A stretch of 64,000 nucleotides of DNA, taken from assembly GCA_965206595.1 (NCBI GenBank), contig OZ242214.1, forward strand, positions 4,480,001-4,544,000, in the 5' to 3' direction. Under the pieces are notes generated by a model. That model ran no database searches. It was not told where the DNA came from and saw nothing but the letters and a program-made list of their open reading frames with translations. This DNA comes from Candidatus Latescibacterota bacterium (GTDB lineage Bacteria > Latescibacterota > UBA2968 > UBA8231). Within the stretch, counting starts at the first letter, position 1. Each line of letters begins with the position of its first letter. Positions 2,489 to 17,239 of the stretch are shown here, piece after piece. A program made the translations under genes and the position numbers.

Positions 2489-3370
2489 TCAGGACCCGGC
2501 GGGGCCCAAAAGCGTGTCGAGTGGGCTCTCGATACGCACCAGGTCCTTCCGCTGCACGTGGGTGTAGATCTCCGTCGTTTTCGAGCTCCTGTGTCCGAGG
2601 AGCTCCTGGATGTAGCGCAGATCGGTCCCCCCTTCGAGCAGGTGCGTCGCAAAGCTGTGTCTCAGGGTGTGCACGGTCACCCGCTTGCGAATTCCCGCGG
2701 CGGCGACCGCACGGGAGAACACCTTCTGCACCGACCGTTCGGTGAGATGCCGTCCTTCCCGGGCTCCGGGAAACAGCCACGTCGACGGCCGGTAAGCCTT
2801 CCAGTAGGACCGAAGATCCTCGAGAATCGCCCTGGGCAGCAGGGTGTAGCGATCCTTGCGCCCCTTGCCCTGCTGCACGCGGATCAACATGCGATCGCTG
2901 TCGATGTCGCTCACCTTGAGACGCACGACCTCCCCCACACGCAGCCCCCCGGCATACACCAGGGCCAGGATGACCCGGTGCTTGGGATTCCGAAGGGAAT
3001 CGAGCAGTCGCAGCATTTCCCGCTGGCTGAGGATTTCGGGAAGCTGGCGACCGCCACGCGGCCTGCGCAGACCCTCCAGGGAGGCGGGCTGCTTAAGGAC
3101 TTCCCCGTAGAGGAAGCTGAGAGCACTGTATAAAATGTTGAAGGCGGAGCGGCTCACCCCGCGGTCGAGGAACCATTCGAGGTGGGACCGCACCTCGTCA
3201 TGCCGTTCCCCCCGGTAGTCCCGTTTCCACTGAAGGAATCGCCGGCAGTAGCCCATGTACGACTTCTGCGTTTTCCTCGCGTACCCCCTCAGCTTCAGCT
3301 CGGACTCGACCCGGTTCAGGATGGCGACCTCTTCGTCGGTCAGGTCTGGATGTCTCCGATAGCGCCGCAT
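2489..3370 (-). CDS. Tyrosine recombinase, integron-integrase-like, with N-terminal SAM-like domain but without the IntI I2 insertion
   Basis: Catalytic R (GLRVGE), K (GKGRKDR), HxxR (HTLRHSFATH), H (LLGH) and Y (EIYTHV) are all present. N-terminal 'LRGYARKTQKSY'. Only 59 aa between KDR and HTLRH. Divergent from a cassette array. Confidence 0.9.
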   Translation of the reverse strand: MRRYRRHPDLTDEEVAILNRVESELKLRGYARKTQKSYMGYCRRFLQWKRDYRGERHDEVRSHLEWFLDRGVSRSAFNILYSALSFLYGEVLKQPASLEGLRRPRGGRQLPEILSQREMLRLLDSLRNPKHRVILALVYAGGLRVGEVVRLKVSDIDSDRMLIRVQQGKGRKDRYTLLPRAILEDLRSYWKAYRPSTWLFPGAREGRHLTERSVQKVFSRAVAAAGIRKRVTVHTLRHSFATHLLEGGTDLRYIQELLGHRSSKTTEIYTHVQRKDLVRIESPLDTLLGPAGS

Positions 3371-3505
3371 GGGCCCGGTTACTCCAAGGCAAAGGTTTGG
3401 CCCTGCCGTAGAGAAAGCCGTGCCAGTCCGACACGGAAACCGGAAATCGTCCTATCTGTCGCAACCGCAATGAGTCACGTCGGATATCCCGAATCGGGAA
3501 AATAG

Positions 3506-3534
3506 TTGCAACTGTTCATCCCGAAACGTACCAT
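3506..3534 (+). promoter_or_regulatory. Putative sigma70-type cassette promoter (Pc-like)
   Basis: TTGCAA (3506-3511), 17-bp spacer, TACCAT (3529-3534), pointing into the array about 60 bp before the first GTTA core. Confidence 0.6.
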
Positions 3535-3565
3535 CGTATCAGATAAGTAACACCCGGAGGCCATT

Positions 3566-3600
3566 ATCCGAACCATTTGTTCGGATTCAATCAGTTATGC
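3566..3600 (+). other. Putative attI-like primary recombination site
   Basis: Inverted repeat ATCCGAAC-CATTT-GTTCGGAT (3566-3586) followed by GTTATGC at 3594-3600, the exact complement of GCATAAC (4542-4548) that ends cassette 1. Confidence 0.65.
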
Positions 3601-3652
3601 GAATTTGCGCTCAGGGTTGACGTAAAGAAATCAAACGAAAGATAGCTACGCC

Positions 3653-4519
3653 TTGAAAGTGACGTTTCTCGGAACATCATCCGCTCCGTCGATGCCTATA
3701 CCGTTTTGCGTTTGTCAGGCGTGCTCAAACGCAAGGCGAGTTGGTGGAAAGAACCTTCGCAGGCGATCGTCCATCACAATCAACGACGAAGTGCTTGTGG
3801 ATATTGGCCCAGACATAGCGACCGCGTCATTCGATTACGACGTTTCGTTGACCGGAATCAGCGTCTGCCTATTGACTCATGCCCACGAGGACCACTTTGA
3901 TGCCGAGTTCATCATATCAAGACACGATGAATACGCAACTATCGTCGCACAGGACATGCTCCTTGCGGGTTCAATCGACGCGCTGAGGTCTATTGACACG
4001 ATTCTAGGCAGAAGGTGCTCGTACGGAAGCATCTTCGATCAAGAAACACAACGTGCCCTGAAGGTTAATCTGTTGACCGTCGAGCCATTCGAGACTCAAG
4101 TTGTCGGTGATTACCGTTTCACAGGATATCCCGCGAGTCACGGCACCGAGAAGGGATGCCTGCTTTACTCAATCGAGCAAGGTCAGCACGCTATATTTTA
4201 TGGTACTGATACATCGATTCTGTCGGAGAGAGTTTGGGAGCATCTTCTGCGCCAAGGCACGCAGTTCGACTTGCTCGTGCTCGATCACACGTACGGCATC
4301 GGTTTCGATGCTAGTCCGGCAGATCATCTGGCATCCGTTGATGTAATAGGCCACGTCGATCGCTTTCGGCGAAACGGTCTTCTTAAGGACAACGCGAAGG
4401 CATACGCGACTCACATTTCGCACGAAGGTTACATGGAGCATGACGAACTCGACGAGTATGCCGAAGCGCACGGTTACAGAGTCGCGTTTGACGGATTGGC
4501 GCTATCATTCAGTGTTTGA
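3653..4519 (+). CDS. MBL-fold metallohydrolase (PhnP-like), cassette 1
   Basis: 'KVTFLGTS..P.PFCVCQAC', HAHEDH metal motif, 'YGTDT', 'ATHISH'. Confidence 0.85.
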   Translation: MKVTFLGTSSAPSMPIPFCVCQACSNARRVGGKNLRRRSSITINDEVLVDIGPDIATASFDYDVSLTGISVCLLTHAHEDHFDAEFIISRHDEYATIVAQDMLLAGSIDALRSIDTILGRRCSYGSIFDQETQRALKVNLLTVEPFETQVVGDYRFTGYPASHGTEKGCLLYSIEQGQHAIFYGTDTSILSERVWEHLLRQGTQFDLLVLDHTYGIGFDASPADHLASVDVIGHVDRFRRNGLLKDNAKAYATHISHEGYMEHDELDEYAEAHGYRVAFDGLALSFSV

Positions 4520-4541
4520 ACAAGACACGAGCGCAAAACTC

Positions 4542-4632
4542 GCATAACAGCACGGTGTTGCGCGGCGGCGCATTCGCGCCTTGGCCTTCGGCAACCCACT
4601 TCGTGGGTTCGCAAACCGGCAGAACGTTAAGC
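4542..4632 (+). repeat. attC-like site 1
   Basis: GCATAAC-agca-CGGTGTTGCG ... CGCAAACCG-gcagaac-GTTAAGC; internal hairpins GGCGC/GCGCC, GCC-ttc-GGC and AACCCAC-ttc-GTGGGTT. Confidence 0.85.
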
Positions 4633-4972
4633 GAAGGCCAAGAGAATTTGATTGTTTTTGTGGAGTATAGATCATGATAGGGAGTGGGAGGGATCGGTAC
4701 TATCCGACCCAGGTCGGCGCTGTTTGAAGAGATGGGCAGCTCGTCGTTTGTGGATTTCCCCACCCCGTCCGGCGCGCTAATACCGCTTGGGCGTTGCGTT
4801 TTACCTGGTTCAGGAAAAAGACGAGATCAATGGGCAGTTGGAGATCAGGACCTGCGGATTGGGAGACCGACGAAAGATGGAGGGCTGAGCAAGGGCGCCG
4901 GACGGCCTCTCCACCGCCCAAGCCCGAGAGTTTTCTCCCATCGTGGTCGGGCAGAGCAGGCCCTCGCTTAAC
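4626..4972 (+). ncRNA. ORF-less cassette 2, candidate structured ncRNA
   Basis: Paralogous to 5044-5381 with no reading frame shared over the full length; 11-bp long-range helix 4765-4775/4895-4905 covaries between the copies. Confidence 0.5.
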
Positions 4973-5050
4973 ACCTGTGTCCCCGGCTCCGGGCCCTGGG
5001 GGCCCCTCGCGCAACCGCTTCGCGGTTCGGGGGCACGGAAGACGTTAAGC
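4966..5050 (+). repeat. attC-like site 2
   Basis: GCTTAAC-acc-TGTGTCCCCG ... GGGCCC-tgg-GGGCCC ... AACCGC-ttc-GCGGTT-CGGGGGCACG-gaagac-GTTAAGC. Confidence 0.85.
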
Positions 5051-5381
5051 GAAGGCAAACGAAGTTTTAAGGATTGTGTGGAGTATAGATCATGATAGGG
5101 TGTCGGAAAGGTCGGTGGTATCCATCGAATGTGGCGCAATTTGCGAGGTGGGCACCTCGTCGCGAGGGACTATCCCCACCCCGTCTGGCGCGCTGTTACC
5201 GACCGTGCGTTGCGTGCCGGTTACGAGATAAAAGCCCATCGGTCGAGATCTCGGAAGCTGGCTCACGATTTAGAGTTGGAATGGAGATGGCTCAGGGAGA
5301 AGGGCGCCAGACGGCCTCTCCACCTCCCAAGCCTGAGAGGTCTTTCTCTTCGTGGTCGATGTGTGCAGGCCCTCGCCTAAC
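5044..5381 (+). ncRNA. ORF-less cassette 3, candidate structured ncRNA
   Basis: Shares blocks GTGGAGTATAGATCATGATAGGG, TCCCCACCCCGTCYGGCGCGCT and AAGGGCGCCRGACGGCCTCTCCACC with cassette 2; helix 5181-5191/5304-5314. Confidence 0.5.
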
Positions 5382-5458
5382 ACCTGTTCCCCCGGCTCCG
5401 GGCCCTGCGGGCCCTTCGCGCAACCGCTTCGCGGTTCGTGGGCACCAAGACGATATAT
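5375..5458 (+). repeat. attC-like site 3 (right core altered to GATATAT)
   Basis: Near copy of site 2 (GCCTAACACCTGT...GGGCCC-tgc-GGGCCC...AACCGCTTCGCGGTT), ending AAGAC-GATATAT. Confidence 0.8.
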
Positions 5459-5550
5459 GACATGGGTTGTCACAGTACCAGTGAAATTCGACAGAGGCAA
5501 AGCTGGCACGGTTGAAATCATGAGCCTGCAGGCGCTGGAGAAAAACTGAC

Positions 5551-6042
5551 GTGGATCGCGTAGCCGTATTCGCAGATGTACAGAATGTTTACTACACAGT
5601 TAAGCAGCAACATAATTGCCATTTCGACTATGGTTCTTTCCTCAGGGAGGCGACAGCCGGCCGGAAACTGGTGAAGGCAGGAGCCTATGCTATTGACAAA
5701 GGCGACAGAAAGCAGGCCCAATTTCAGCAAATTCTGAAACGGCTCGGTTTTGAGGTAAAGCTCGCGCCTTATATTCAGAGAGCTGACGGCTCAGCCAAAG
5801 GGGACTGGGACGTGGGCATTACGGTCGATATGTTGGAGTACGCAGATCGCGTGGATGTCGCTGTCCTGGCTTCAGGTGACGGAGACTACGCGCCTGCAAT
5901 TGACAAGCTAATCAAGGAATCCAAGGTATCCGTCGAGGTGTACGGTGTCCCAGGACTAACTGCTAGTCGTCTAATCGAATCGTCGACGCGATTTGTGCCA
6001 ATTCAAGGAGATCTGTTGCTGCCTATTCCCACCACGTGGTGA
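5551..6042 (+). CDS. NYN domain (LabA/DUF88, PIN-like) protein, cassette 4
   Basis: 'VAVFADVQN', 'KGDWDVGITVD', 'LASGDGDY' acidic motifs. Confidence 0.88.
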   Translation: MDRVAVFADVQNVYYTVKQQHNCHFDYGSFLREATAGRKLVKAGAYAIDKGDRKQAQFQQILKRLGFEVKLAPYIQRADGSAKGDWDVGITVDMLEYADRVDVAVLASGDGDYAPAIDKLIKESKVSVEVYGVPGLTASRLIESSTRFVPIQGDLLLPIPTTW

Positions 6043-6130
6043 CGTGGAAGCGACACTGTTGCAAAGCCATGCACGCTAACGCACTCTCGCGTCGCTACCT
6101 CTCTGCGTTGATCAGCCTTGGAGCAATCAT

Positions 6131-6161
6131 ACCCACGTCATATATACGGAAGACGTTACCT
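6131..6161 (+). repeat. Collapsed attC-like junction between cassettes 4 and 5
   Basis: ACCCACGTCATATAT (complements the cassette 4 start) directly followed by ACGGAAGAC-GTTACCT; internal arms absent. Confidence 0.6.
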
Positions 6162-6190
6162 GCCATGGCAGTGCCCAGAAGGAGAGACAC

Positions 6191-7323
6191 ATGAAGGCCC
6201 TGACATCCATTATCGCCGCCTCAATCCTTCTCCTCTCGCCCATCCTCGCCCACGAACGAGAAGAACCCCCGGAGGGAGCCGTGGCCCGAACCGTCCTGCC
6301 AGACGCCAAGATGCCGATCATGAACGAGCACTCCCGTTCCACCCTTGTCTGCGCGATGTACGCCCTGCTGCCGGCTCTCGGGCAACAGGGCTGGTCGATC
6401 CCTCGACTGGAAGCGCTGACGGGATACGCCTTCTACTTTCAGATGCGGGAGGGCGGCGAGTCGGTCTTCGACGACGATCTCGATTGGGGCCTGGCCATGC
6501 ACGTCCTCGACATCTTTGGTCAAGCGAAAGTCTATGATGCGGACAAGAACTCGGACGTTGATCTCCCTGCGCTCAAGGCCGAAGCGCGAGACGCAGTCGT
6601 CGCCAGCCTGGAGAACGGACTTCCCAGCCTCGTCTGGGCGCCACTGAGCCTGGAGCAGAGGGGCAAGGTCCATTTCGCATGCTGGGGCCTCATCGTCGGC
6701 TACAACGCGGCAGACGAAACATACTTGATCCGCCAACCGGCCGAGAAGCTCGACTACCCGGTCCGCTTTGACGCCATCGGGTTCGCCGATCCGAGAGATT
6801 GGTTCCGCGTCGGCACCTTCAAGCCGAAAGAACTTGACGACAACGCTCTGCACCTCACCTCACTCCGCAATGCCGTCGCCTTCGCGAACGGCACTCGCTA
6901 CGACAACCCCCCAGGTCCGTCGAGGCCGCCCTCGTGCATCCCCCGAAAAACCCCTATGGATTCGCCGCCTACGAGCTCTGGCAGGAAGCGTTCGAATCTG
7001 ACGTAAATCTGAACGCCACGTTCTTCCACACAGAAACCCTGAAACCGCGTAGAGAGGCCGCGGCCGCCTACCTGCGGGAGCTCACCCATGTCTATCCGGC
7101 CGCCGCCAATCCGCTGGAAGCAGCAGCCGTTCACTATGATCGAGAGGTCGAATCCATCACCGCAATCTTCGACCTGTGCGTTGCCGCCACCAAGCACGAG
7201 CCCAAGGCCTTCACCCCCGACCAGCGCGCCGAAACCCGCTCCCTCATCGCCCAGCCGTTGAAGGCCGACCGGGCCGCCGTGGCGCAGATCGAGGCCGCGC
7301 TCAAGATTCTGGAGACGCCGTGA
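6191..7323 (+). CDS. Secreted hypothetical protein (possible BtrH/C39-peptidase-like fold), split by a frameshift near 6940; cassette 5
   Basis: Signal-peptide-like N-terminus; ORF 6191..7006 overlaps ORF 6934..7323; 'WGLIVGYN' motif; both parts lie in one cassette. Confidence 0.6.
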
Positions 7324-7407
7324 GGCAGGCTCAGCGTGCTCTTGACCGGGGCCCATCGTGAGGGGGGAGTACGCTGTTTCTTTGCCGATTCTCAAACTGC
7401 CACAGGC

Positions 7408-7490
7408 AGGTAACACGTCCGTGCCCGGCTTCGGGCTTACGCCCTTCGCGCAACCGCTTTCGCGGTTCGGGCACGGCGAAAACGTTATGT
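7408..7490 (+). repeat. attC-like site 5
   Basis: AGGTAAC-acgt-CCGTGCCCG ... GGGC-ttac-GCCC ... AACCGC-tttc-GCGGTT-CGGGCACGG-cgaaaac-GTTATGT (perfect 9-bp L arms). Confidence 0.88.
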
Positions 7491-7538
7491 GACATGGAAT
7501 AACTACCCCTAGATGAAATTTTCGCTCTACGAGCTATA

Positions 7539-8345
7539 ATGACAGAAGCAAAAGTTCTCTCACAAGATGACCTCGACCACTTCGAGACACATGGCTACAT
7601 CATTTTTCGCGGCGCATTTGATCCAGATGACTGCCGGCAGATGGAGGACATTGTCTGGCGTTGGTTGGAACGGCATGGTATCATGCGGAACGACCCCAGC
7701 ACCTGGGATCGGAATCAGGCAGGTGGGCTAAGCCGGACGGTTCGATCTACCCGTGTATTTCGCGATGCAGTATCAGAGCAGTTCGTATCGGCGATCGATC
7801 AGCTGTTGGGAACAGGTAGTTGGGAGAAACCCCGAGATTGGGGCAGTTTTGTGTTCTCGTTCCCCGAAGCCCTCGATGAACAGTGGAATGTCGCTAGCGG
7901 GAATTGGCACTGGCGCAACTCGGGTCTCCGCAACGTGGATAAGCTTGATGGGCTTTTCAATTTCTCGTTCATAACCGAGGTTCAATCTCACGGCGGTGGA
8001 ACGCACATAGCCGACGGGAGTCATCACCTGATAAGGCACTTCTACCGCACGCAAGAGAGCCTGTTTTCCCGGAACGACAGGATAGTCAAGAAGAGGTTCT
8101 TTAGTACTCATCCATGGCTCAGGGAACTGACGCAGGCAAGCGAGAATTCCATCACTCGCGTCAGACGGTTTAGGGATCAAACGACTGATGTTAATGGATT
8201 CCCCGTCCGCATCATTGAGTTGACCGGGAAGCCTGGTGACGCCATGATCGGCCATCCACTCCTGATGCACTGTCGGTCAACGAACTGTGCTGACGTGCCG
8301 AGGTTCATGAGGGCCTGTGAAATACACACGACCGCTGACAAATAG
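7539..8345 (+). CDS. PhyH family dioxygenase, cassette 6
   Basis: 'HFETHGYIIFRGAF', 'GGGTHIADGSHH', 'GKPGDAMIGHPLLMH'. Confidence 0.8.
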   Translation: MTEAKVLSQDDLDHFETHGYIIFRGAFDPDDCRQMEDIVWRWLERHGIMRNDPSTWDRNQAGGLSRTVRSTRVFRDAVSEQFVSAIDQLLGTGSWEKPRDWGSFVFSFPEALDEQWNVASGNWHWRNSGLRNVDKLDGLFNFSFITEVQSHGGGTHIADGSHHLIRHFYRTQESLFSRNDRIVKKRFFSTHPWLRELTQASENSITRVRRFRDQTTDVNGFPVRIIELTGKPGDAMIGHPLLMHCRSTNCADVPRFMRACEIHTTADK

Positions 8346-8377
8346 TTTGGAACCAATCTTCCATTCGGGACCACGTC

Positions 8378-8399
8378 ACATAACGAAGAACGTTTATAC
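8378..8399 (+). repeat. Collapsed attC-like junction between cassettes 6 and 7
   Basis: ACATAAC-gaagaac-GTTTATAC; both flanks match their cassettes' opposite ends but the internal arms are missing. Confidence 0.65.
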
Positions 8400-8454
8400 G
8401 AACTGAGAAAACCAATCATCGTGAATCCGAGGCGAATCAGACAAGGCTTTACGA

Positions 8455-9174
8455 ATGATCCTTGAAGCATTGAATGATCTTTTCACATCAGAATTGCTGG
8501 CTGCCCACCCTGAAGAATGGGGCGTGACCGATCATTGTGATCCGCCTTCCAGCGTAGGGTACGCGACCACGATTACTCCGAGGGCTATTTCGACGGCACT
8601 CGACCGTGGTGCCGACGTAATTGTCACGCATCATGACGCCTGGGATTTCATGTATGAACAAAGAGAGCAGGTATACGATCTCTTACGCGACAACAGCCTG
8701 ACCCATGTATGGGCCCACTTGCCGTTGGACCAGTCCGACTTTGGCACATCGGCTACGCTTCTCTCGAAAATTGGCTGCGTGGAGGTCTGCAAGCCATCGA
8801 AAGGTGAAGTACGCATTGGTGAACTGGATGAATCAACTGACTTCGAGGCGATCCGTTTGAAGCTCGATTCCCTATTGCAGGAACAACCACGTAGCCTCCA
8901 TGATTGGGGTCGAGCCATCCGCAGAATAGGCTGCGTGACTGGGGCGGGCGTCTACACGAGTTACCTCAAGGATGCGATGCCCCATGATATTGACCTTTAT
9001 CTGACAGGAGAGACTAACCTTTACTTATTGGAGTATGCCGTCCACCTTGGACTCAGCGCCCTGGTTTACTCCCACAACTATACCGAGTTGCCAGGAGTCC
9101 ATATGTTCGCAGAGCGTTTTTGCCAAGCTCTTCAACTCGAGATGAAGGGACACCTCGGTGACTCTCACTTCTGA
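8455..9174 (+). CDS. Nif3-like dinuclear metal-centre protein, cassette 7
   Basis: 'ADVIVTHH', 'AHLPLD', 'LYLTGE', 'HNYTE'. Confidence 0.85.
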   Translation: MILEALNDLFTSELLAAHPEEWGVTDHCDPPSSVGYATTITPRAISTALDRGADVIVTHHDAWDFMYEQREQVYDLLRDNSLTHVWAHLPLDQSDFGTSATLLSKIGCVEVCKPSKGEVRIGELDESTDFEAIRLKLDSLLQEQPRSLHDWGRAIRRIGCVTGAGVYTSYLKDAMPHDIDLYLTGETNLYLLEYAVHLGLSALVYSHNYTELPGVHMFAERFCQALQLEMKGHLGDSHF

Positions 9175-9195
9175 TTCGGTAAAGCGACTCAATTC

Positions 9196-9287
9196 GTATA
9201 ACACCGCGGCGTTGCGCTGCGTCGCTGTTGCTCCTTGGCCTCCGGCAATCTGGCAACGCCAGATTCACAAACCGTGAAACGTTATAT
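9196..9287 (+). repeat. attC-like site 7
   Basis: GTATAAC-accg-CGGCGTTGCG ... GCC-tcc-GGC-AATCTGGC-aac-GCCAGATT-CACAAACCG-tgaaac-GTTATAT; same layout as site 1. Confidence 0.82.
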
Positions 9288-9299
9288 GAAATATCTGAA

Positions 9300-10061
9300 A
9301 TGAGAAAAGAAGAATCAATTGACGGAGACTATCTGGCCCCAGCGAAATACGACAAATACTACGACGCGTAGGCTACGCTTCCAGAACGGTTTCTGGCTGA
9401 CCTCGCCTCTCGCGGAAGGGTCCTTGAACTGGAATTTGGAACTGGCCGGATAGCAATTCCCCTGGCGGAGAACGGCCTTGAGGTGACCGGGATCGATTAT
9501 TCCGAGCCGATGGTAAGCCTTGCCAGATCAAAGGCCGAAGACAGACAGGTGAGGGTCGACTGGATCCGCGACGATATACGCTGCTTTGACACCGGTAAGC
9601 GATATGGGTCGATCTTGCTACTGCACAACGCATTATGGCACCTGCACAACCTTTCCGATTTCGAAGAGTGCATTCGCTGTGTGAAGCGTCATCTCCTTCC
9701 GGGTGGTTTCTTCATTTTGGACGTCTTTGTCCCTGGGGTGGAGATCCTCAATCGCGACCCAGGCATTCGGTACCCATTCTCTCGCTACACGGACGATGAC
9801 ACGGGACAAGAAGTGCAGGTTACTCAGTCCTACAGGTATGAAGCAGACACCGAGATCGCGCGCATGGTGCACTACAGAAAGGACTCTGATGAGATCGTTG
9901 GGGGTCTGAATCTCCGGATGTATTTCCCGAAGGAACTGGATGCCTTGCTGAAGTACAACGGGATAAGGATCAAGGAGAAATTCGGGAGCTGGGACCGTGA
10001 CCCCTTTGGGCCGGACTCCAGGCATCAGCTTTGTTTCTGCACCACCATGGAGGACGGCTGA
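9300..10061 (+). CDS. Class I SAM-dependent methyltransferase, frameshifted in its 5' part; cassette 8
   Basis: ATG at 9300; upstream 'VLELE.GTGRIAIPLAE.GLEVTGIDYSEPM' joins ORF 9483..10061. Confidence 0.78.
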
Positions 10062-10334
10062 GCAGCCGGAATCGCATATCGGATATCACTCCAATTCACC
10101 CGGCGTCCGCCGCTCCCCTGAGGCTGTGCCCACCCCGCATGCGCGAGACCGGAATTGTGAGAAAGTCTGGGGACCTTAGGATGAATTGGTCGCGAGATAC
10201 AGGAGATGATACAGGCATGTCCAACCTGAAGGACGGGACCTTCGACAAGCGCGTCGATTACGACCCGGATAGCAATGTTCCTGTCCTGTCCCCGGCATAC
10301 GCAGTGGACTTCGAAGAATTTCGAGAGGTAGGTG

Positions 10335-10870
10335 ATGAAATCTGAATACGTGATGGCGTTGATTTTCGAATTCTGGGCCTTCTGTTGGGACTTCAAGCAG
10401 TAGCCTTCATCCCGGGCATAATGTTGGCGACTTCAGAGCCGTTTTTCGGGGGTTCGCCAACATGGCCGCTCGTGATGCCTCAAGTGCTCGTATGGGTGCT
10501 GTGTCTGCCAGTAGCTTTCGTGTTGTTTCGCTACGAACGATGGCTTGCCAACCTCGTTGTGGCTGAAGACGAGCATCTGGAACTGGCGGGAGTGGCCGTA
10601 GAGACCGCCGATACCCTACCGGTTTTTCGTTTGCTCTTGCGCGTTGTTGGCGCATTCGTTGTTGCCTGGTCGGTGCCCGAGTTGGCCGGTCATGGTTTCG
10701 CCCACGTGATGCTGTACCAGATGAGCGGCCCGCAAATCTGGACTCAGATCGCCCCGGGCGTTGTGAAGCTGGCTATAGGCGTATATCTGCTCAAAGGTGG
10801 GACACACCTTGTACGCTTCGCGTACGGCTCCCAGCCCATATCCGATTACCCAGGAAATGACGAAACCTGA
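10335..10870 (+). CDS. Hypothetical multi-pass membrane protein (5' frameshift)
   Basis: ATG 10335 after GAGGT RBS, shifting into ORF 10385..10870 with about 4 hydrophobic segments. Confidence 0.6.
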
Positions 10871-11005
10871 TTACATGCCAGTCTGGAAAGGCATAAGAAA
10901 GTCGTTTCCGTGAGGAGGTCATTTGTCGTGTAACAGCGCCATTCCGGATGGAGCTTTCACCTTCGCCAGAATGCTTCTTAAGTTCGGGAAACCGGCCGAC
11001 TTGCT

Positions 11006-11362
11006 GTGAGAAGTGCAAGATCAGATCGATCAGAATCGAGGACTCCCGATGAATGGCAGGACAGGTACGTATTTGACACCCAAGGTTACGTGGTGCTTCC
11101 CGACATCCTCACTCATTCCGAGGTTGAGCGCCTCGTCGACGCCTTCCCGAGGGATGACAAAGGCCAGGTCATGCTCGAAGCTCCTGACGACAACTCACAT
11201 CATGACAACAGCATCCAGGGAAGGGTGCTCGATCATCGAGCTCTGATTGAGGCCAGCGTCACCGGCTACCTGGGACGCAGCTGCATGAAGCATCCTGCCG
11301 CCTGGGACATCGGTTCCGTCGGTAGCCTGGGGCCCATCAGGATCGCCCTGATAGGGCACTGA
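11006..11362 (+). pseudogene. PhyH-family N-terminal fragment
   Basis: 'DRYVFDTQGYVVLPDIL' matches the PhyH N-termini in this window; the rest is missing. Confidence 0.5.
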
Positions 11363-11432
11363 TTCTCACCGAATCCGACCGGTATGTCCTCAAGGCAGTA
11401 GGCGATTTGATTGGAAAAAGGGGGCCCTCGAT

Positions 11433-12176
11433 ATGCCAGGTTTCATGTCATGGAAGGAAATGAACTGGCTTCTGCCTGACTTTAATGAGACCGGGTTGAT
11501 CTACCACGGAAGTCAGCCTGAAAATCTGGCTTCTATCTTCCAGAATGGCCTGATTCCCCAATACAATAGTCCCAGAGATGGGCACGAAACAATCTACAAT
11601 GCACACTACCGGTACCGGCCCAAGTCCATTCCAGACTGGGTGGATCCGAGACGATGTATTTTTGGTTACATGAACCGGGCCAGGCAAGGAGGCTGGGGCG
11701 GCATTGTGGATGGAATAGTCAATGGTGTAACCATTGGCATTAAAGCAGCAGATCATATCACTGAGCGGACCTGGACAGCCTGCGTCCGGTTTTCAGATAT
11801 GGTGGACTGCCCGGAGGAGGCAGGGTACTTCGATACGGAGGAGAGAAAAGCCTTTTTCAAGGACAGAATGGAACCGGTTTCGTGTAAAGCATACTGGGAG
11901 ACCAGCCTCTCATTTCACGATAACTTGAAGATTCGCCTGGATCATTTGCTCCCGATGCAGGGAAATCATGAGCTATTGATTTGTTCGGAGATTGATCCTG
12001 GGTTACTAAATCTTCGAGGGTTCAGAGTGCGGGGGGCAAATGGAACACGCGAGGTTGTCAGCAATGACCTGTCCGAGGTGTTTCTGAATGCCGAAGAAAA
12101 GCTTCGGAACAACATGCCAATTGTGGGGGAACTGAAGGCCGTCAGCGAATTCTGCGGCCGTTCGGCCAGCGCCTGA
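11433..12176 (+). CDS. Hypothetical protein with ADP-ribosyltransferase-like N-terminal motif
   Basis: 247-aa ORF with 'IYHGS..ENLASIFQNGLIP'. Confidence 0.6.
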   Translation: MPGFMSWKEMNWLLPDFNETGLIYHGSQPENLASIFQNGLIPQYNSPRDGHETIYNAHYRYRPKSIPDWVDPRRCIFGYMNRARQGGWGGIVDGIVNGVTIGIKAADHITERTWTACVRFSDMVDCPEEAGYFDTEERKAFFKDRMEPVSCKAYWETSLSFHDNLKIRLDHLLPMQGNHELLICSEIDPGLLNLRGFRVRGANGTREVVSNDLSEVFLNAEEKLRNNMPIVGELKAVSEFCGRSASA

Positions 12177-12365
12177 CAACAACGGTTTCCCTTTGAACTG
12201 CGGCGGTATTTGCACGGCCGGGCTCAAAGGTGCGTAACAACCCGGGGAGACCAGAGCCTGGTGACCGCACCCTGAAAGAATGCGGGCAGCTGTGGCGGCC
12301 ATGAAAAACGCAGGTGGGTATTGGCTTGGAGCTGAACCCAACAACGCCAACGAGGAGTCCCGAGA

Positions 12366-12707
12366 ATGAAAGAGATTGCGCCCACACTTCCGGTATCCGA
12401 TGTCCAGAAAGCTGTCGAGTTCTATCGGGGCAAGTTGGCGTTCAGTGTCGGTTTCCAGAATCATCCCGTCTTTGCTTTGGTTCGGCGCGGCGCTGTCAGT
12501 ATCGGTTTGCAGCTTGCTTCGCAGCGACGGCCAGCCGGGACAGGAAGTTGCTACATCTGGGTGGATGATGTCAGGGAAATTTATAATGAGTTGTCCGGAA
12601 GAGGAGTTGAATTCGCAGATGACATCGCGTTTCGCGATGAATATGAAATGACCGACTTCGTCCTCCATGATCCGGATGGGAACCACATCGGGATTGGCGG
12701 AAACTGA
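12366..12707 (+). CDS. VOC/glyoxalase (bleomycin-resistance-like) family protein
   Basis: 'PTLPVSDVQKAVEFY', 'YIWVDDV', 'DPDGNHI'. Confidence 0.88.
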   Translation: MKEIAPTLPVSDVQKAVEFYRGKLAFSVGFQNHPVFALVRRGAVSIGLQLASQRRPAGTGSCYIWVDDVREIYNELSGRGVEFADDIAFRDEYEMTDFVLHDPDGNHIGIGGN

Positions 12708-12807
12708 GGGGGTCATGAATGCGAATCTGGCAGGTTCCATCGCCCTGACTCCACCTCTAAGGCCAATGGGGGTAAAAAGCGGACGTTCTTAGTGGAAGCT
12801 CGATTCC

Positions 12808-13593
12808 ATGGAACTGACCAGAGATGACATTGAAGCGGGCTTTCGTAATCTCGGCCTGAAGGAAGGCGAAACAGTTGAAGTTCATAGCTCATTGAGCAGC
12901 TTGCGCAATGTGCAAGGGGGAGCTGAAACTGTCGTGGATGCCTTGATGAGTGTCGTGGGCGAAAGTGGAGCGTTGGTGATGTCCAACTATCCGCTCACCC
13001 CCCCGATCCCCTTGACTTCCGAGGAGAAATCCAAAGGAATAGGTTGGAAACTCAGAATTCTGACCGAGGACTCAGACGAAAGGACGGTGACCGGCGCCAT
13101 TTCCGACGAGTTTCGCTTCAGAGCTGATGTTGTATGCGGTTCTGGGACCCGTCGTGTCTGTGCCTGGGGCCGGGATGCGGATTTGCACGCCAAGGGATAT
13201 CGACACTTGCTCGAAGTCGATGGGCTGGTTCTTCTCCTTGGTGTAGACATAGATCGATGTTCAAGCATGCATCTCGCCGACGGAGTGAAGGTTACCAAGG
13301 AGGCCAGGGAGCGGATGAATGCAATATGGCCTGATCCAGGGTGCAAAATCACGGACGAAGTCAGGCGGGAATATCCTTCAGATATAATCATTGGCCCCAG
13401 GGAAGGGACATCTGGAAATCCTTGGGAAAATGCCAGACAGGAAGCTGAAAGACGAGGATTGATAAGGAGAGGTAAGGTCGGTCAAGCAGACTGCTTGCTA
13501 TTCAGGGCGAGGGATCTAGTCGGTCTGATTGAGAAAGTTCGTAAATCTGGGCCTTTCAAAGACGCATTGCAGAACATTTTTGACGAGGAATAA
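12808..13593 (+). CDS. AAC(3) family N-acetyltransferase
   Basis: 'LGLKEGETVEVHSSLSSL..VQGGAETVVDAL', 'VLLLGV...SSMHLAD'. Confidence 0.85.
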   Translation: MELTRDDIEAGFRNLGLKEGETVEVHSSLSSLRNVQGGAETVVDALMSVVGESGALVMSNYPLTPPIPLTSEEKSKGIGWKLRILTEDSDERTVTGAISDEFRFRADVVCGSGTRRVCAWGRDADLHAKGYRHLLEVDGLVLLLGVDIDRCSSMHLADGVKVTKEARERMNAIWPDPGCKITDEVRREYPSDIIIGPREGTSGNPWENARQEAERRGLIRRGKVGQADCLLFRARDLVGLIEKVRKSGPFKDALQNIFDEE

Positions 13594-13666
13594 GGATGGC
13601 GCTGATAGCTCAGCGCGGAGAAAGCAGGGCAAAGGTCCAAGACGAACCGCGGCGGACCTGGCCGGA

Positions 13667-15034
13667 ATGACTATGCAATACTTCCAACCTGGCGGCGACT
13701 TCTTCGTCGGCGACTGCATGCCCTTTTACCACGATGGTGTCTTCCGGCTCTTCTACCTTCTGGACGAGGGCCACCACGGAGCACTCGGCGGGTTGGGAGG
13801 CCATCAGTGGGCACAGGCAAGCACGACGGACCTCCTTCACTGGGAACACCATCCGCTCGCCATCCCGATCACCGAGGAGCGTGAAGGTTCCATCTGCACC
13901 GGTTCGGTGTTCTTCCACGAAGGGACATACTACGGTTTCTACGCGACGCGCATGCGCGACAGGACGCAGCATCTGAGTCTTGCGACCAGTCACGAGGGCG
14001 TCCACTTCCAGAAGACCGAACCCAATCCGTTCGCTTCGCCGCCTCCTGGCTACGACCCGGTCCATTACCGTGACCCGTTCGTCTTCCAGGATCGCGGTGA
14101 AGGACTCTTCCACATGCTCGTTACGGCGTGCCTGGAAGACTGGCCCATCGGCGACCGCGGCGGGTGCCTTGCCCACCTGGTTTCCGCAGACTTGAAACAC
14201 TGGGAGAACAGAAAGCCGTTTATCGTGCCGGGTCTGCCGGGGGCGCCCGAATGTCCGGATTATTTCTTCTGGAATGGCTGGTACTATCTCGTATTCAGCA
14301 ACCGCGGGGTCGCCCGCTACAGAATGTCGCGAGAGCCCTTCGGACCCTGGCTTCGGCCGCAGGTCGACGCCCTTGACGGAGCTGCTGCACGGGTAATGAA
14401 GACTGCGCCATTCGGGGACGGCAGGCGCCTTGGTGTTGCCTGGATCGGCACACGCGAGAACAACCGGGACGATGGACCGTTTCAGTGGGGGGGCAACGCC
14501 GTATTCCGAGAACTGATCCAACATGACGACGGCACTCTTGGTGCGAAGTTTCCGGAGGAACTGACCCCTGGCGGTGACCCGCTGTCCGCTCTGCACCTGT
14601 CCGCGCTCGATGCCGATACGAGAGTTGAGGGACGCAGTGTCCACGCAGCAGCTCGGCAAGGCCTGGCAGCGGCCGGCTGTTCCGGCATTCCACGCAATGC
14701 GCGACTGGCAATCCGTGTCCTTCCTCAGCCAGGCTCCCTGGGTTTCGGGCTTCGCCTCCGGGCTGGTGAGACATTCGACTCAGGATGCGACCTGGACTTC
14801 TCACCCTATGACCGGGTCGCCAGGCTGCACGATCAGTGGATATATGGTGTCGATGGACTGGATCGCCCCTTCTCCCTGGAGATAGTTCTCAGGGACGACA
14901 TCATTGACGTTTGCATCGACGGCCGCAGGACGCTTATCGATCGATGTCCGGAAAGGCGGGGCGACCGGATGCTGCTGTATGCGCAGGATTCGGGGGTCAC
15001 GTTTGAGGTTGCCGAGATCGCTGCTCTGCCGTAG
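13667..15034 (+). CDS. Glycoside hydrolase, GH32-like five-bladed beta-propeller
   Basis: 'VGDCMPFY', 'TGSV', 'YRDP', 'PECPDY' catalytic motifs plus a C-terminal beta-sandwich. Confidence 0.82.
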   Translation: MTMQYFQPGGDFFVGDCMPFYHDGVFRLFYLLDEGHHGALGGLGGHQWAQASTTDLLHWEHHPLAIPITEEREGSICTGSVFFHEGTYYGFYATRMRDRTQHLSLATSHEGVHFQKTEPNPFASPPPGYDPVHYRDPFVFQDRGEGLFHMLVTACLEDWPIGDRGGCLAHLVSADLKHWENRKPFIVPGLPGAPECPDYFFWNGWYYLVFSNRGVARYRMSREPFGPWLRPQVDALDGAAARVMKTAPFGDGRRLGVAWIGTRENNRDDGPFQWGGNAVFRELIQHDDGTLGAKFPEELTPGGDPLSALHLSALDADTRVEGRSVHAAARQGLAAAGCSGIPRNARLAIRVLPQPGSLGFGLRLRAGETFDSGCDLDFSPYDRVARLHDQWIYGVDGLDRPFSLEIVLRDDIIDVCIDGRRTLIDRCPERRGDRMLLYAQDSGVTFEVAEIAALP

Positions 15035-15149
15035 CGCAGAGAGAATTGCGGGCCACACCACCCGCCACCAATCCCCAACACCCGGGGAACAGAAGCTGGG
15101 GTTCACAAACAGACAGCCCGTTAGGCGCCAGTCGAGGAAACTCCCGAAC

Positions 15150-15764
15150 GTGAAACGGACGGCCACCAAAATCCCACTCAGGGTGCAGACAACGCGGTTG
15201 GAAACCTTCAACCGCGAACGTCACGCCTGGCCGGTCTCCCTGCGCCGGAAGTGCTCGGCGGATTCGGGGCGAACCTGGGTCTTCACGGATGGTGGCGGTG
15301 ATGGGCGGTTCGGGGCTGTCGTTGTGCGTCCGGGAATCGAAGAACACCGGATGGCGGGACGCCGCGGATCACGGACCAACAGCGTGGTTGCCGAACTCGA
15401 TGGGGTCGTGTTGGGTCTGGAGAATTGCCGACTGGGTGAGAGAATCACGATCGTGTCCGACTATCTGTGGACAGCATACTATATCAACGGCTGGCGCCGC
15501 GTACACCATCCTCGGCTTCGTGAAGGAGTTGTACATGCGAGGAGGCGTCTGGAAAAGCTGCGGGGCGCCGTGTTCGTGCATTACGCGCTGGAAACCGGGG
15601 GCGAATGTGCCTTCAGACGATGGAACGCTGTCGCTCATGACCTGTGTCAAAAGGACATGGTCGGGACCAACTCGCGTACTCCTTGGGACCAGACCAAAGC
15701 GTTGGACATTGTTTCGGAATATCCCCTGAATAGACGGGGACATACCGCATTGTCCCCGGTATAG
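15150..15764 (+). CDS. RNase HI-like protein
   Basis: 'VFTDG', 'TNSVVAEL', 'IVSDY', 'WNAVAH'; start uncertain (GTG 15150 with GAGGA RBS). Confidence 0.65.
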   Translation: MKRTATKIPLRVQTTRLETFNRERHAWPVSLRRKCSADSGRTWVFTDGGGDGRFGAVVVRPGIEEHRMAGRRGSRTNSVVAELDGVVLGLENCRLGERITIVSDYLWTAYYINGWRRVHHPRLREGVVHARRRLEKLRGAVFVHYALETGGECAFRRWNAVAHDLCQKDMVGTNSRTPWDQTKALDIVSEYPLNRRGHTALSPV

Positions 15765-15797
15765 GCAGACACGTCACCTAAAAAGGAAACGCGCAAA

Positions 15798-16565: not shown

Positions 16566-16645
16566 ACGCGCGAACCGTTGAATGAACCGCCAAACCCGGA
16601 ATGGGGAACAGGAAAGCGTTGCCGCCGGGAAACCAACCGAGGAAT

Positions 16646-17094
16646 ATGCCAGGAAAACCGATCCAGGTGCTTGTGATTCCATTCCGCATGGGATCTGAGC
16701 CGGAGTTTGCGGTTTTTCACCGTTCCGACGAGGAGATGTGGCAATTCATTGCCGGCGGCGTTGAGGACCGGGAAGACGCAATGCGGGCCGCCCGGCGGGA
16801 GGCGGAAGAAGAGGCGTCCATCCCGAGTGATTTGCCGTTTGTGCGGCTGGATTCGGTTGCTTCCGTTCCCAGGACAGCATTTGAAGAGACGGAGCACTGG
16901 CCGGAAAATCTGCTCTTGTACCCGAGTATTCGTTCGCTGTCGATGTCGGCGACCGAGAGCTGGTGCTATCCTTCGAACACGACGAGGTGAGGTGGGTGCC
17001 TTACGACAAAGCCCGGTGCCTCCATACATGGAACAGCAATCGGGTGGCGCTCTGGGAGCTCAATGAAATGAAAGCCTGCCGCAGACAACAGTGA
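16646..17094 (+). CDS. NUDIX pyrophosphatase, frameshifted near 16915
   Basis: NUDIX box 'GGVEDREDAMRAARREAEEEA'; C-terminus 'PEYSFAVD...EHDEVRW...SNRVALWEL' in a shifted frame. Confidence 0.75.
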
Positions 17095-17239
17095 GGTCTT
17101 CCAGAACTTTTCTGTAGTCTTCCGGGTTCGTAATTCCACAAATAAATCGCTATTCGCCTTGACGCTGATCAGGAGGTCCGAGGGCAGTTTCATTGTTTGG
17201 GGATAATTGGTCCAAACCTTGAGACAGGGAGAAAAGGAA

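What the first reader, a model, noticed from the sequence alone, without database searches (positions are those of the whole stretch)
4542..9287. attC-like sites with a branched interior and TTC/GAA mini-hairpins
Seen: five full sites of 83-92 bp (4542, 4966, 5375, 7408, 9196) share the layout TAAC, 3-4 nt, L arm, 2-3 short hairpins, L' arm, about 5-7 nt ending AC, then GTTA (GATA in site 3). The last hairpin always starts AA, ends TT and abuts L'. Its sequence covaries: AACCCAC/GTGGGTT, AACCGC/GCGGTT, AATCTGGC/GCCAGATT. Many loops are TTC, i.e. GAA on the bottom strand, and GNA triloops are known to be very stable DNA mini-hairpins. Two subfamilies are visible (sites 1 and 7; sites 2, 3 and 5). 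Inference: a multi-way junction rather than a simple attC hairpin is the recognition element. Caveat: the L arm of site 2 has T.G pairs on the top strand.
Basis: partly seen in the sequence, partly recalled or inferred. Interest (0 to 1): 0.75.

Follow-up and report, generated by a model that had tools for sequence, protein, structure and literature searches.

The report
Branched cassette sites, integrase lacking hallmark domain
These repeats are the folded recombination sites of a gene-cassette array built like an integron, but its recombinase lacks the protein domain thought essential for reading such sites, and the sites carry a conserved branched top that may help replace it.

Summary
Five 77-86-nt sites (4542, 4966, 5375, 7408, 9196) share TAAC...GTTA ends, a one-sided 3-4-nt spacer, an L stem and a three- or four-way junction capped mostly by GAA-type loops on the bottom strand. 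Sixty-nine like sites in this genome and six related genomes keep every helix, with compensatory changes.

They are attC-type cassette sites. Homology to five related platforms stops at the GTT of an attI site. A congeneric genome has this window's fourth cassette directly at attI, with the same junction letters.

Branched attC tops and GAA loops are already published, and the branched top of the Vibrio site is dispensable. So "junction instead of hairpin" is only partly supported.

What is unusual:
- The only integron-type recombinase in the genome (2489-3370, minus strand) lacks the 41-residue IntI-specific insertion. It belongs to a widespread insertion-less clade and is under purifying selection.
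- The hairpin abutting L' has invariant first pairs that complete a CGAAC box. That box also forms the attI palindrome, at the same 14-bp distance from TAAC.

Earlier notes of this scan reported insertion-less integrase arrays in other phyla, and a similar layout (rAID-1) is published for Bacteroidales. Verdict: new variant of a known kind. Recombination was not observed directly.

The parts
2489..3370 (-). Tyrosine recombinase, 293 aa, integron-integrase-like but without the IntI-specific insertion. It is divergent from the cassette array.
   Evidence: Pfam Phage_integrase plus Phage_int_SAM_4. Best NCBIfam hit is TIGR02249 at 223.6 bits, below the 265 cut-off, and it matches model positions 1-179 and 235-315 only. 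Against VchIntIA (2a3v), query residues 187-206 stand where the chain has 178-239. In a MAFFT alignment, 31 + 10 residues present in six canonical IntIs of the same phylum are absent here. dN/dS against orthologues is 0.07-0.24.
3371..3597 (+). attI region. It holds an 8-bp inverted repeat with a 5-nt spacer at 3567-3587, each arm containing [GC]CGAAC. The crossover GTT is at 3594-3596.
   Evidence: Homology to five orthologous platforms ends at 3597-3599. The palindrome arms change in a compensatory way between genera. The distance from CGAAC to TAAC on the bottom strand is 14 in the four sequences read (counted by hand from that output).
4542..4632 (-). attC site 1 (subfamily A). Folded bottom strand: R stem, 4-nt spacer, L stem with two 3'-arm bulges, and three hairpins (GAA, GAA and GAAT loops).
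   Evidence: (104.9 bits).
4966..5050 (-). attC site 2 (subfamily B), a three-way junction.
   Evidence: (90.8 bits).
5375..5455 (-). attC site 3 (subfamily B). The L stem is weakened. Its R' reads GATA because the following cassette starts with ATA.
   Evidence: z -1.06; 79.5 bits.
6134..6158 (-). Collapsed site 4: R'' flank joined directly to spacer plus R'. The L arms and the top are lost.
   Evidence: The congeneric genome G001 keeps a full site at this place after the same cassette. No model hit and no fold here.
7408..7490 (-). attC site 5 (subfamily B), the cleanest three-way junction, with one 3'-arm bulge.
   Evidence: (97 bits).
8373..8401 (-). Collapsed site 6: R'' directly followed by spacer plus R'.
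   Evidence: Weak model hits only (9.8 and 12 bits). G001 has a full site here.
9196..9287 (-). attC site 7 (subfamily A). Its L stem is degraded.
   Evidence: z -1.27; 77.4 bits.
3598..5451 (+). Cassettes 1-3. Cassette 1 is an MBL-fold hydrolase (3653-4519). Cassettes 2 and 3 are paralogous small cassettes. All three are absent from the congeneric array.
   Evidence: In runs X13 and X14 a contig joins attI to cassette 3.
5452..9195 (+). Cassettes 4-7: NYN-domain protein (5551-6042), unknown secreted-type protein (6191-7323, frameshifted here), PhyH-like protein (7539-8345), NIF3/DUF34 protein (8455-9174).

Best explanation
These are the cassette recombination sites (attC) of a chromosomal, integron-like gene-capture platform in a Candidatus Latescibacterota genome.

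Each site most likely acts as a folded bottom strand, built in this order:
1. an R stem (TAACG paired with TGTTA, carrying the AA|C cleavage point);
2. a 3-4-nt spacer that is unpaired on one side only;
3. an 11-bp L stem, often with one bulged base two pairs above the spacer;
4. a junction.

Shown: cassettes enter at attI and leave by exchange right after the G of GTT.

Inferred:
- The enzyme is the adjacent 293-residue recombinase, which lacks the IntI-specific I2 domain.
- The hairpin that abuts L' stacks on the L stem. Its invariant first pairs (AAC with GTT), together with the last two L pairs, then rebuild the duplex box CGAAC. This is the same box, at the same 14-bp distance from TAAC, that forms the arms of the double-stranded attI palindrome. 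The folded site would thus mimic attI up to and including that box.
- The other one or two hairpins, with C-GNA-G mini-hairpin caps, compact the top of the site and favour folding of the bottom strand over the top strand.
For: Identity as recombination sites:
- The window's homology to the platforms of G001, G020, G004, G012 and G016 runs only from about 2496 to 3597-3599 and ends at GTT.
- G001 (platform 96.7% identical) has the NYN cassette (99.3% identical) directly at attI. It has the same junction letters as the attC3/NYN junction here.
- A 1508-nt contig in two independent runs joins attI to cassette 3, with 255 letters on the shorter side of the joint.

Folding under selection:
- 88.6% of cells are paired in both alignments. 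Changes on both sides occur in 10 of 11 and 8 of 11 L-stem pairs, in 5 of 7 pairs of the abutting hairpin and in 3 of 5 pairs of the third hairpin. 0 of 500 shuffles reach the observed values, and slid controls pair 31-42%.
- 60 of 64 parsed sites fold as junctions, and the first branch abuts L' in 43 of those 60.

Bottom-strand bias:
- The bottom strand is the more stable in 57 of 64 sites, by 2.3 kcal/mol on average.
- The fifth R pair is G.T on the bottom strand (so A.C on the top strand) in 24 of 26 and 21 of 22 sites.
- L-stem bulges lie on the 3' arm in 32 sites and on the 5' arm only in 4.

Loops:
- 50 of 65 triloops are GNA and 33 are C-GAA-G.
- C-G-closed GNA loops are known as very stable DNA mini-hairpins (abstracts of PMC3201870 and PMC13037366).

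CGAAC box:
- It occurs in 48 of 64 sites, in 46 of them at offset 17-18, against 1.2 expected.
- The commonest number of paired positions before it is 14 (19 of 48; 13 or 14 in 30 of 48).
- The attI arms carry [GC]CGAAC 14 bp from TAAC.

Enzyme:
- It is the only integron-type recombinase in the genome.
- dN/dS is 0.07-0.24.
- The same site family lies next to its orthologues in 6 of 7 related loci.
Against: - No recombination, binding or folding was observed. Everything about the enzyme and about stacking is inference.
- The published precedent says a branched top is dispensable for IntI1 acting on the Vibrio repeat.
- The CGAAC box is missing in 16 of 64 sites, and the 14-pair count holds in only 19 of 48. 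It depends on predicted minimum-energy folds.
- Beside the same integrase family in a Desulfitobacterium genome, several sites have an unstructured top. Across phyla 8 of 35 fold as plain hairpins, and the box there is only GA[AC]-like.
- Those sites were found with a model that contains the hairpin, so the count is biased towards it.
- Several orthologous integrase genes are broken: one stop in G004, and truncations in G012, G001 and G013.
- A trans-acting enzyme cannot be excluded.
- Conservation of sequence could reflect how cassettes are made rather than how they are read.
Confidence: 0.55

Rival explanations
1. Ordinary attC sites whose branched top is only a lineage-specific variable terminal structure. 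It helps folding or is neutral, and the enzyme reads only the R box, spacer and L stem. On this view the CGAAC letters are kept by common descent or by the process that makes cassettes.
For: Branched tops and GAA loops are described for normal attC sites, and the Vibrio top is replaceable by GAA (PMC5371416). Sites within one sedentary array are known to resemble each other (PMC4889954, passages read). 4 of 64 sites here and 8 of 35 cross-phylum sites lack a junction.
Against: The first two pairs of the abutting hairpin stay A-T in 24-25 of 26 and in 21 and 15 of 22 sites, while the next pairs covary. The box sits at a fixed offset and recurs in attI, which is not a cassette product. The architecture recurs beside 45-60% identical integrases in Archaea, Atribacteria, Bacillota and Gemmatimonadota.
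Confidence: 0.27
2. One reading: the three-dimensional multi-way junction itself is the recognition element. It would replace the extrahelical-base reading that the missing I2 domain performs in classical integrases.
For: The integrase lacks the domain said to accommodate extrahelical bases (PMC4792948, passage read). 60 of 64 sites are junctions. Next to canonical IntI genes of the same phylum, the sites read are plain hairpins of about 58 nt. The two models find 1 hit in 10 such loci.
Against: Two different junction types (three-way and four-way) serve in one array. Branch lengths and loops vary freely. Junction-less members exist. A bulge two pairs above the spacer persists in 29 sites, so extrahelical reading may not be gone. 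The canonical comparison rests on two arrays.
Confidence: 0.12
3. A fossil array. The sites were made and moved by a classical IntI, now lost or acting in trans, and the adjacent short recombinase is a bystander or a dead deletion derivative.
For: Canonical IntI genes above the family cut-off occur in 17 of 168 genomes of the phylum, including other genera of the same family. Some short integrase genes are broken. Two sites in the window have collapsed.
Against: The short enzyme is 32-41% identical to those IntIs but 45-60% identical to insertion-less proteins. In a quick tree it lies inside the insertion-less clade (support 96), apart from the IntI clade (support 100). dN/dS is 0.07-0.24. Integrase plus attI is the conserved unit at the head of the arrays. 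No canonical IntI is present in this genome. Cassette content differs between congeners exactly at attI.
Confidence: 0.05
4. Not an integron-type platform at all.
Against: None of 18 ORFs scanned in 1-16.6 kb matches a transposase family. The gene heads the array in six genomes with a conserved attI. Cassette differences break at G|TT.
Confidence: 0.01

Closest known systems
attC sites of sedentary chromosomal integrons, e.g. the Vibrio cholerae repeats (branched variable terminal structure), and attC of aadA1/aadA7/ereA2 (GAA triplet top)
   Same: AAC...GTT core boxes. R and L stems separated by an unpaired spacer. Asymmetry that marks the bottom strand. A variable top that can be branched or a GAA loop. 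A position at the 3' end of each cassette. Exchange after the G of GTT. Sites alike within an array.
   Different: The spacer is unpaired on one side only. The bulge is a single T, C or A rather than the conserved G and T, and is absent in half of the sites. The top is conserved as a three- or four-way junction across genera. The hairpin abutting L' has invariant base letters shared with attI. The partner enzyme lacks the I2 domain.
rAID-1 (recombinase-associated acquired interbacterial defence) clusters of Bacteroidales
   Same: A XerD-family type recombinase heads an array of short genes with repetitive intergenic sequences 'reminiscent of integrons' (bioRxiv 10.1101/471110, passages read). 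Most members of the insertion-less family found here also have co-directional downstream arrays.
   Different: Here the recombinase gene is divergent from the array, as in classical integrons. The host is Latescibacterota. The cassettes scanned gave no match to an immunity-protein family. Kinship of the two recombinases was not tested, since I held no rAID-1 sequence. The paper's supplementary figure on the repeats could not be seen.
Integron-like subgroup of simple tyrosine recombinases (Smyshlyaev, Bateman and Barabas 2021)
   Same: [quoted passage not shown]
   Different: That paper has no occurrence of the word attC. It calls the insertion essential for integron function and links no insertion-less member to cassette arrays.
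Xer/dif-type core sites
   Same: Two binding arms around a short central region. The folded site and the double-stranded attI look like such a core, with TAAC on one arm and CGAAC at the far end of the other (inference).
   Different: The substrate is one folded strand with an interrupted second strand at the junction. No dif-like sequence match was tested.

Membership tests
integron attC site | Inverted core boxes R'' (ending AAC) and R' (starting GTT) that pair in the folded strand | tested here: met
   The R-stem pairs are 93.8% and 94.5% paired in 26 and 22 sites. TAAC/GTTA is nearly invariant. The pattern is enriched 5 against 0.22 expected.
integron attC site | Imperfect inverted repeats L''/L' forming an L stem, conserved in structure and not in sequence | tested here: met
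   10 of 11 and 8 of 11 L-stem pairs show changes on both sides.
integron attC site | Unpaired central spacer between the R and L boxes | tested here: met
   The first internal loop is 4+0 nt in 29 and 3+0 nt in 8 of 64 sites. It is one-sided, unlike the two-sided spacer described for the Vibrio site.
integron attC site | Two or three extrahelical bases on the R''-L'' arm, with a conserved G and T | tested here: inconclusive
   32 of 64 sites have a 3'-arm bulge, against 4 with a bulge on the 5' arm only. In 29 it lies 2 bp above the spacer. The bulged base is T 13, C 11, A 11 and G 1. Half of the sites show none in the predicted fold.
integron attC site | Length 57-141 bp with a variable terminal structure | tested here: met
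   77-86 nt from TAAC to GTTA in the window. The range is taken from PMC5371416.
integron attC site | Exchange between G and TT of R', seen as cassette boundaries | tested here: met
   The attI/NYN junction in G001 and the attC3/NYN junction here share all letters after the G. Homology to five platforms ends at GTT.
integron attC site | Match to the standard attC covariance model of IntegronFinder | not testable with these tools
   That model is not in Rfam. Rfam gave no match in the window.
integron (as defined by IntI) | Integrase with the IntI-specific additional domain near patch III | tested here: not met
   TIGR02249 positions 180-234 are unmatched and the score of 223.6 is below the 265 cut-off. 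41 residues are absent compared with six canonical IntIs. The gap lies opposite residues 178-239 of 2a3v.
integron (as defined by IntI) | attI next to the integrase gene, used as the insertion point | tested here: met
   Integrase plus 227 bp is conserved up to GTT in five related genomes, and the first cassettes differ.
integron (as defined by IntI) | Cassette promoter Pc reading into the array | not tested
   No promoter scan or RNA data were used.
rAID-1 cluster | Recombinase at the 5' end with two or more co-directional downstream genes of low GC | tested here: not met
   The recombinase is on the minus strand and the array on the plus strand. GC of the array is 0.52-0.59 against 0.62-0.70 beside it. 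Identity to the B. fragilis recombinase was not tested.
IS91-type element with upstream integrase | Adjacent rolling-circle (Y2) transposase gene | tested here: not met
   No such Pfam family among 18 ORFs of 1-16.6 kb.

The most novel reading that the evidence does not exclude
A second, widespread lineage of integrons exists in Bacteria and Archaea. Its integrases never carried the I2 domain, yet they recombine folded single-stranded cassette sites. They would read them as mimics of the double-stranded attI, with a hairpin stacked on the L stem supplying the end of the binding arm. If so, the domain held to be essential for attC recombination is not essential. These elements would also show a living intermediate between Xer/dif recombination and classical integrons.
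Probability: 0.35. Interest if true: 0.85.

Novelty: new variant of a known kind. Interest (0 to 1): 0.62.

Why it matters
Integron integrases are identified, in software and in textbooks, by an extra domain that holds the flipped-out bases of folded cassette sites. Recombinases without it that lie near attC sites have been set aside as 'not IntI' (PMC4889954, passages read).

Here an enzyme without that domain heads real cassette arrays in several genera, and there is comparative evidence of cassette gain at its attI. Its sites keep a conserved junction whose base repeats an attI motif.

If the enzyme is active, three things follow:
- Surveys of integrons miss a whole class, in phyla thought to have few.
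- The requirement for the I2 domain needs revisiting.
- The junction gives a concrete, testable idea of how a Xer-like enzyme can read a folded strand.

The branched, GNA-capped design is also a natural example of how an 80-100-nt single strand can be made to fold quickly and on one strand only.

Tried and rejected
1. A relaxed genome-wide search ([CT]AAC...GTT[AG] plus an energy filter) gave 455 candidates in this GC-rich genome and was useless. I replaced it with nhmmer from 13 seed sites.

2. A scan for R box plus a 10-bp L stem that ignores the top of the site was meant to remove ascertainment bias across phyla. It gave 80 hits against 60 in shuffled sequence and was dropped. The cross-phylum junction count (27 of 35) therefore rests on sites found with a model that contains the hairpins.

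3. Rfam gave no match in the window at gathering thresholds.

4. The careful tree did not finish in 300 s, so only the quick tree is used. Its root is arbitrary. The two outgroup rows have very long branches, and one of them falls inside the insertion-less clade. One row that I labelled as insertion-bearing (L048) also lies there.

5. The repeat finder beside canonical IntI genes showed only two short repeat families ending in GTTA. I folded five such sites, and three gave a spanning fold. This is a thin basis for the contrast.

6. Joints in laid contigs with fewer than 30 letters on one side (for example 3590 to 5452 and 4619 to 6153 in X15) fit the cassette boundaries but may come from relatives or repeats. 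They are not used as evidence.

7. Look-up of earlier notes by place found nothing for this window.

8. The idea that the TTC loops matter as RNA UUCG tetraloops in cassette transcripts was considered and dropped. The loops are three-base loops closed by C-G, not C(UUCG)G.

9. The idea of a double-stranded, Xer-like reaction on unfolded sites is disfavoured by the compensatory changes and by features specific to the bottom strand.

Full report
**What is in the sequence.**
The window (G000:C1:4480001-4544000) carries a lower-GC stretch from about 3.6 to 18 kb, with GC 0.52-0.61 against 0.62-0.70 beside it.

- The strict pattern TAAC-N50-80-ACGTTA occurs 5 times against 0.22 expected.
- As single-stranded DNA, the bottom strands of sites 1, 2 and 5 fold into four parts: a 5-bp R stem, a 4-nt loop on one side only, an 11-bp L stem with one or two bulges on the 3' arm, and a junction of two or three hairpins. 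Their z-scores are -3.4 to -3.9. Sites 3 and 7 are weaker, at -1.1 and -1.3.

**More sites, here and in relatives.**
- An nhmmer profile of 13 clean sites finds 17 sites at E < 1e-3 in the 7.05-Mb genome. They lie in five places. Only the window's cluster lies next to a recombinase gene.
- The recombinase has orthologues of 74-97% identity in six genomes of the same bacterial family.
- In 6 of the 7 flanks fetched, the same site family forms arrays of 4 to 20 sites in the expected orientation. The seventh, a 9.5-kb contig, had none.
- Sixty-nine sites passed E < 1e-3.

**Covariation.**
- On MAFFT alignments that were not fitted to any structure, both subfamilies (26 and 22 sites) have 88.6% of cells paired. 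15 of 28 and 17 of 31 pairs show changes on both sides.
- 0 of 500 shuffles reach the observed values, and slid controls pair 31-42%.
- Every helix is supported. The L stem has changes on both sides in 10 of 11 and 8 of 11 pairs, the hairpin abutting L' in 5 of 7 pairs (subfamily A), and the third hairpin in 3 of 5. The small GCC/GGC hairpin is 98.5% paired but hardly varies.
- Related sequences inflate the shuffle test, so the slid controls and the counts of pair types are the safer measures.
- With the R stem enforced, 64 of the 69 sites could be parsed. Sixty fold as junctions (33 three-way, 27 four-way). The first branch starts with no unpaired base after L' in 43 of those 60.

**Signs that the bottom strand is the working strand.**
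- The bottom strand is predicted to be more stable in 57 of 64 sites, by 2.3 kcal/mol on average.
- The fifth R pair is G.T on the bottom strand, which is A.C on the top strand, in 24 of 26 and 21 of 22 sites.
- L-stem bulges lie on the 3' arm in 32 sites and on the 5' arm only in 4.
- 50 of 65 three-base loops are GNA, and 33 are C-GAA-G.
- C-G-closed GNA loops are known as exceptionally stable DNA mini-hairpins. I saw only the abstracts of PMC3201870 and PMC13037366 in the search listing.

**They are recombination sites.**
- BLAST of the first 20 kb against the related loci shows that only 2496 to 3597-3599 is shared with G020, G004, G012 and G016. That stretch is the recombinase gene plus 227 bp, and the match ends at a GTT at 3594-3596.
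- The same-genus genome G001 shares this platform at 96.7%. It then continues directly with the NYN cassette, which is the fourth cassette here (99.3% identical).
- The letters after the G are the same at attI/NYN in G001 and at attC3/NYN here.
- Three cassettes have thus been gained at attI (or lost) since two congeners split.
- In contigs of two public runs from different studies, one 1508-nt record joins attI to cassette 3 with 255 letters on the shorter side of the joint. This is another arrangement with a break at the same place. These are metagenome contigs, so they show variants in nature and not events in one cell.

**The recombinase.**
- The 293-residue protein (2489-3370, minus strand) has the SAM-like and catalytic domains of tyrosine recombinases.
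- Its best family is the integron integrase model, but below the cut-off (223.6 against 265). Model positions 180-234 are unmatched.
- Its best solved relative is the Vibrio integron integrase. There, chain residues 178-239 face only 20 residues of the query.
- Aligned with six canonical IntIs of the same phylum, it lacks 31 + 10 residues.
- It is the only such gene in the genome.
- It is 32-41% identical to those canonical IntIs but 45-60% identical to a very large set of proteins without the insertion. These come from Bacillota, Atribacteria, Nitrospirae, Bacteroidota, Spirochaetes and several archaeal groups.
- In a quick maximum-likelihood tree, 15 canonical IntIs form a clade with support 100. 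A sister clade with support 96 holds 35 insertion-less rows, the window's protein nested among them, together with one insertion-labelled row (L048) and one long-branch outgroup row. The rooting and both outgroup rows are unreliable.
- Among four orthologues dN/dS is 0.07-0.24. Even so, G004 has a stop codon, and G012, G001 and G013 have shortened genes.
- Canonical IntI genes above the cut-off do exist in 17 of 168 genomes of the phylum, in other genera.
- By the record titles of the closest NadE relatives, the phylum is Candidatus Latescibacterota.

**The same pairing elsewhere.**
- The subfamily-A model was searched over 83 loci that hold insertion-less relatives (915 kb). It gives 47 hits at E <= 1 in 22 loci, and 61 loci have none.
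- In the loci oriented on the recombinase gene, all hits are co-directional with it. All but one lie downstream of it. A Desulfitobacterium chromosome has 13 in a row.
- Folded, they show the same R box, one-sided spacer and L stem. In Altiarchaeum, Atribacteria, Bacillota, Gemmatimonadota, Paenibacillus and Spirochaetota records they also show a hairpin next to L', often with a GAA loop.
- Of 37 hits at E <= 0.03, 35 could be parsed. Twenty-seven fold as junctions and 8 as plain hairpins. Seventeen show no L-stem bulge. The model used to find them contains the hairpins, so this count is biased.
- Beside canonical IntI genes of the phylum (10 loci, 194 kb) the two models find one site. The sites I could read there are plain hairpins of about 58 nt, one of them with a GCGAAGC top.

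**The junction box.**
- The first two pairs of the hairpin abutting L' are A-T in 24 and 25 of 26 sites (subfamily B), and in 21 and 15 of 22 (subfamily A). The pairs above them covary.
- Together with the last two L' letters they spell CGAAC. This is found in 48 of 64 sites, in 46 of them 17-18 nt from the T of TAAC, against 1.2 expected from shuffling.
- The attI region contains an inverted repeat at 3567-3587 whose two arms both read [GC]CGAAC. The third letter of the arms changes in a compensatory way between genera (C/G here, G/C in G020 and G016).
- On the bottom strand of attI the box starts 14 nt from the T of TAAC.
- In the folded cassette sites the commonest number of paired positions before the box is also 14 (19 of 48 sites; 13 or 14 in 30 of 48), once the looped-out spacer is left out.
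- I infer that the L stem and the abutting hairpin stack, so that the folded strand offers the same TAAC-10 bp-CGAAC duplex as attI. In that duplex the second strand is interrupted at the junction. This would explain why that hairpin always starts AA, ends TT and touches L'. It is inference from predicted folds. Nothing here shows binding.

**What is known.**
- Bouvier et al. [quoted passage not shown] Replacing that 65-nt branched top by GAA or TTC changed recombination 1.6- to 2.4-fold.
- Loot et al. 2017 repeat the range of 57-141 bp (PMC5371416). A branched interior and GAA loops are therefore not new as such.
- Cury et al. 2016 (PMC4889954, passages read) found 50 recombinases without the IntI region next to attC sites and concluded that they 'are not IntI'. 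The four placed between IntI and Xer had fewer than three sites.
- Ghaly et al. 2022 report that archaeal IntIs have the additional domain (PMC9668308).
- Escudero et al. 2016 describe the I2 domain as the part that accommodates the extrahelical bases, and they imagine a Xer-like ancestor gaining it (PMC4792948).
- Smyshlyaev et al. 2021 remark that the insertion 'is not fully conserved' in their integron-like subgroup (PMC8138268).
- Ross et al. describe rAID-1 clusters of Bacteroidales: a XerD-family recombinase followed by co-directional genes, with intergenic repeats 'reminiscent of integrons' (bioRxiv 10.1101/471110).
- My searches found no paper that links insertion-less integrases to folded attC-type sites outside that case, or that describes the junction box. 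Subscription journals and supplements were not searched.
- Earlier notes of this scan report insertion-less integrase arrays in candidate-phyla bacteria, Bacteroidota and others. The scan has therefore seen this class before on other DNA. Two of those notes are marked as partly fallen, and I used them only as leads.

**Verdict.**
- The sites are attC-type recombination sites of an integron-like platform.
- The claim that the junction replaces the hairpin as the recognition element is only partly supported. The R box, spacer and L stem are all there, and branched tops are known and can be dispensable. However, the base of the hairpin next to L' looks like part of what is read.
The platform's integrase lacks the domain that defines integron integrases, yet cassettes have moved at its attI.
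- I rate this a new variant of a known kind, with interest 0.62.

Noticed in passing
window 6191-7323 (place 6912): Two overlapping reading frames (6191-7006 and 6934-7323) look like one cassette gene split by a frameshift. Contigs of three other runs (X13, X14, X15) lack one base at 6912. The window therefore has either a real frameshift or an assembly error in a C/A run.
   Followed up: partly
window 4631-5044 and 5048-5455: Cassettes 2 and 3 are paralogues. Cassette 3 has a 122-codon frame (5092-5460) that runs into its attC, while cassette 2 is out of frame after 17 codons. No family was assigned.
   Followed up: no
window 9288-17637: The stretch after the last recognisable site is shared with the congeneric genome at 90-97% and has no detectable attC. 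It holds a methyltransferase, a relative of aminoglycoside 3-N-acetyltransferases (12808-13593; Pfam Antibiotic_NAT, far below the NCBIfam cut-offs) and a GH32-type hydrolase. These may be old cassettes with decayed sites or ordinary genes.
   Followed up: no
G000:C1 2574-4264, 110118-110693, 3352438-3363600, 5957188-5957274: Four further clusters or single copies of the same site family lie elsewhere in the genome, with no such recombinase gene beside them. They are arrays of the CALIN type.
   Followed up: partly
L113 (G079:C1:2492064-2496008): One genome of the same class has a canonical IntI gene and an insertion-less relative (47% identical to the window's) within the same 4-kb locus.
   Followed up: no
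L146 (G040) and most loci, compared with the window: In most members of the family the array lies downstream of the recombinase gene and is co-directional with it. In the window's close relatives the gene is divergent from the array, as in classical integrons. The gene seems to have been inverted in this lineage.
   Followed up: partly
L048 (Spirochaetota record): This relative (45% identical) has about 38 extra residues in the catalytic domain, yet it sits inside the insertion-less clade in the quick tree. It is flanked by very long (139-173 nt) multi-branched sites.
   Followed up: no
window 56001-58000: A 2-kb stretch has GC 0.46 in a region of GC 0.62-0.69.
   Followed up: no
flanks of the sites, e.g. 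window 7402-7411 and 7488-7497: The R stem can extend outward by up to about 9 more pairs (CATGTCA... with ...TGACGTG in many sites of the family). This is longer than the 7-bp core box of classical sites.
   Followed up: no
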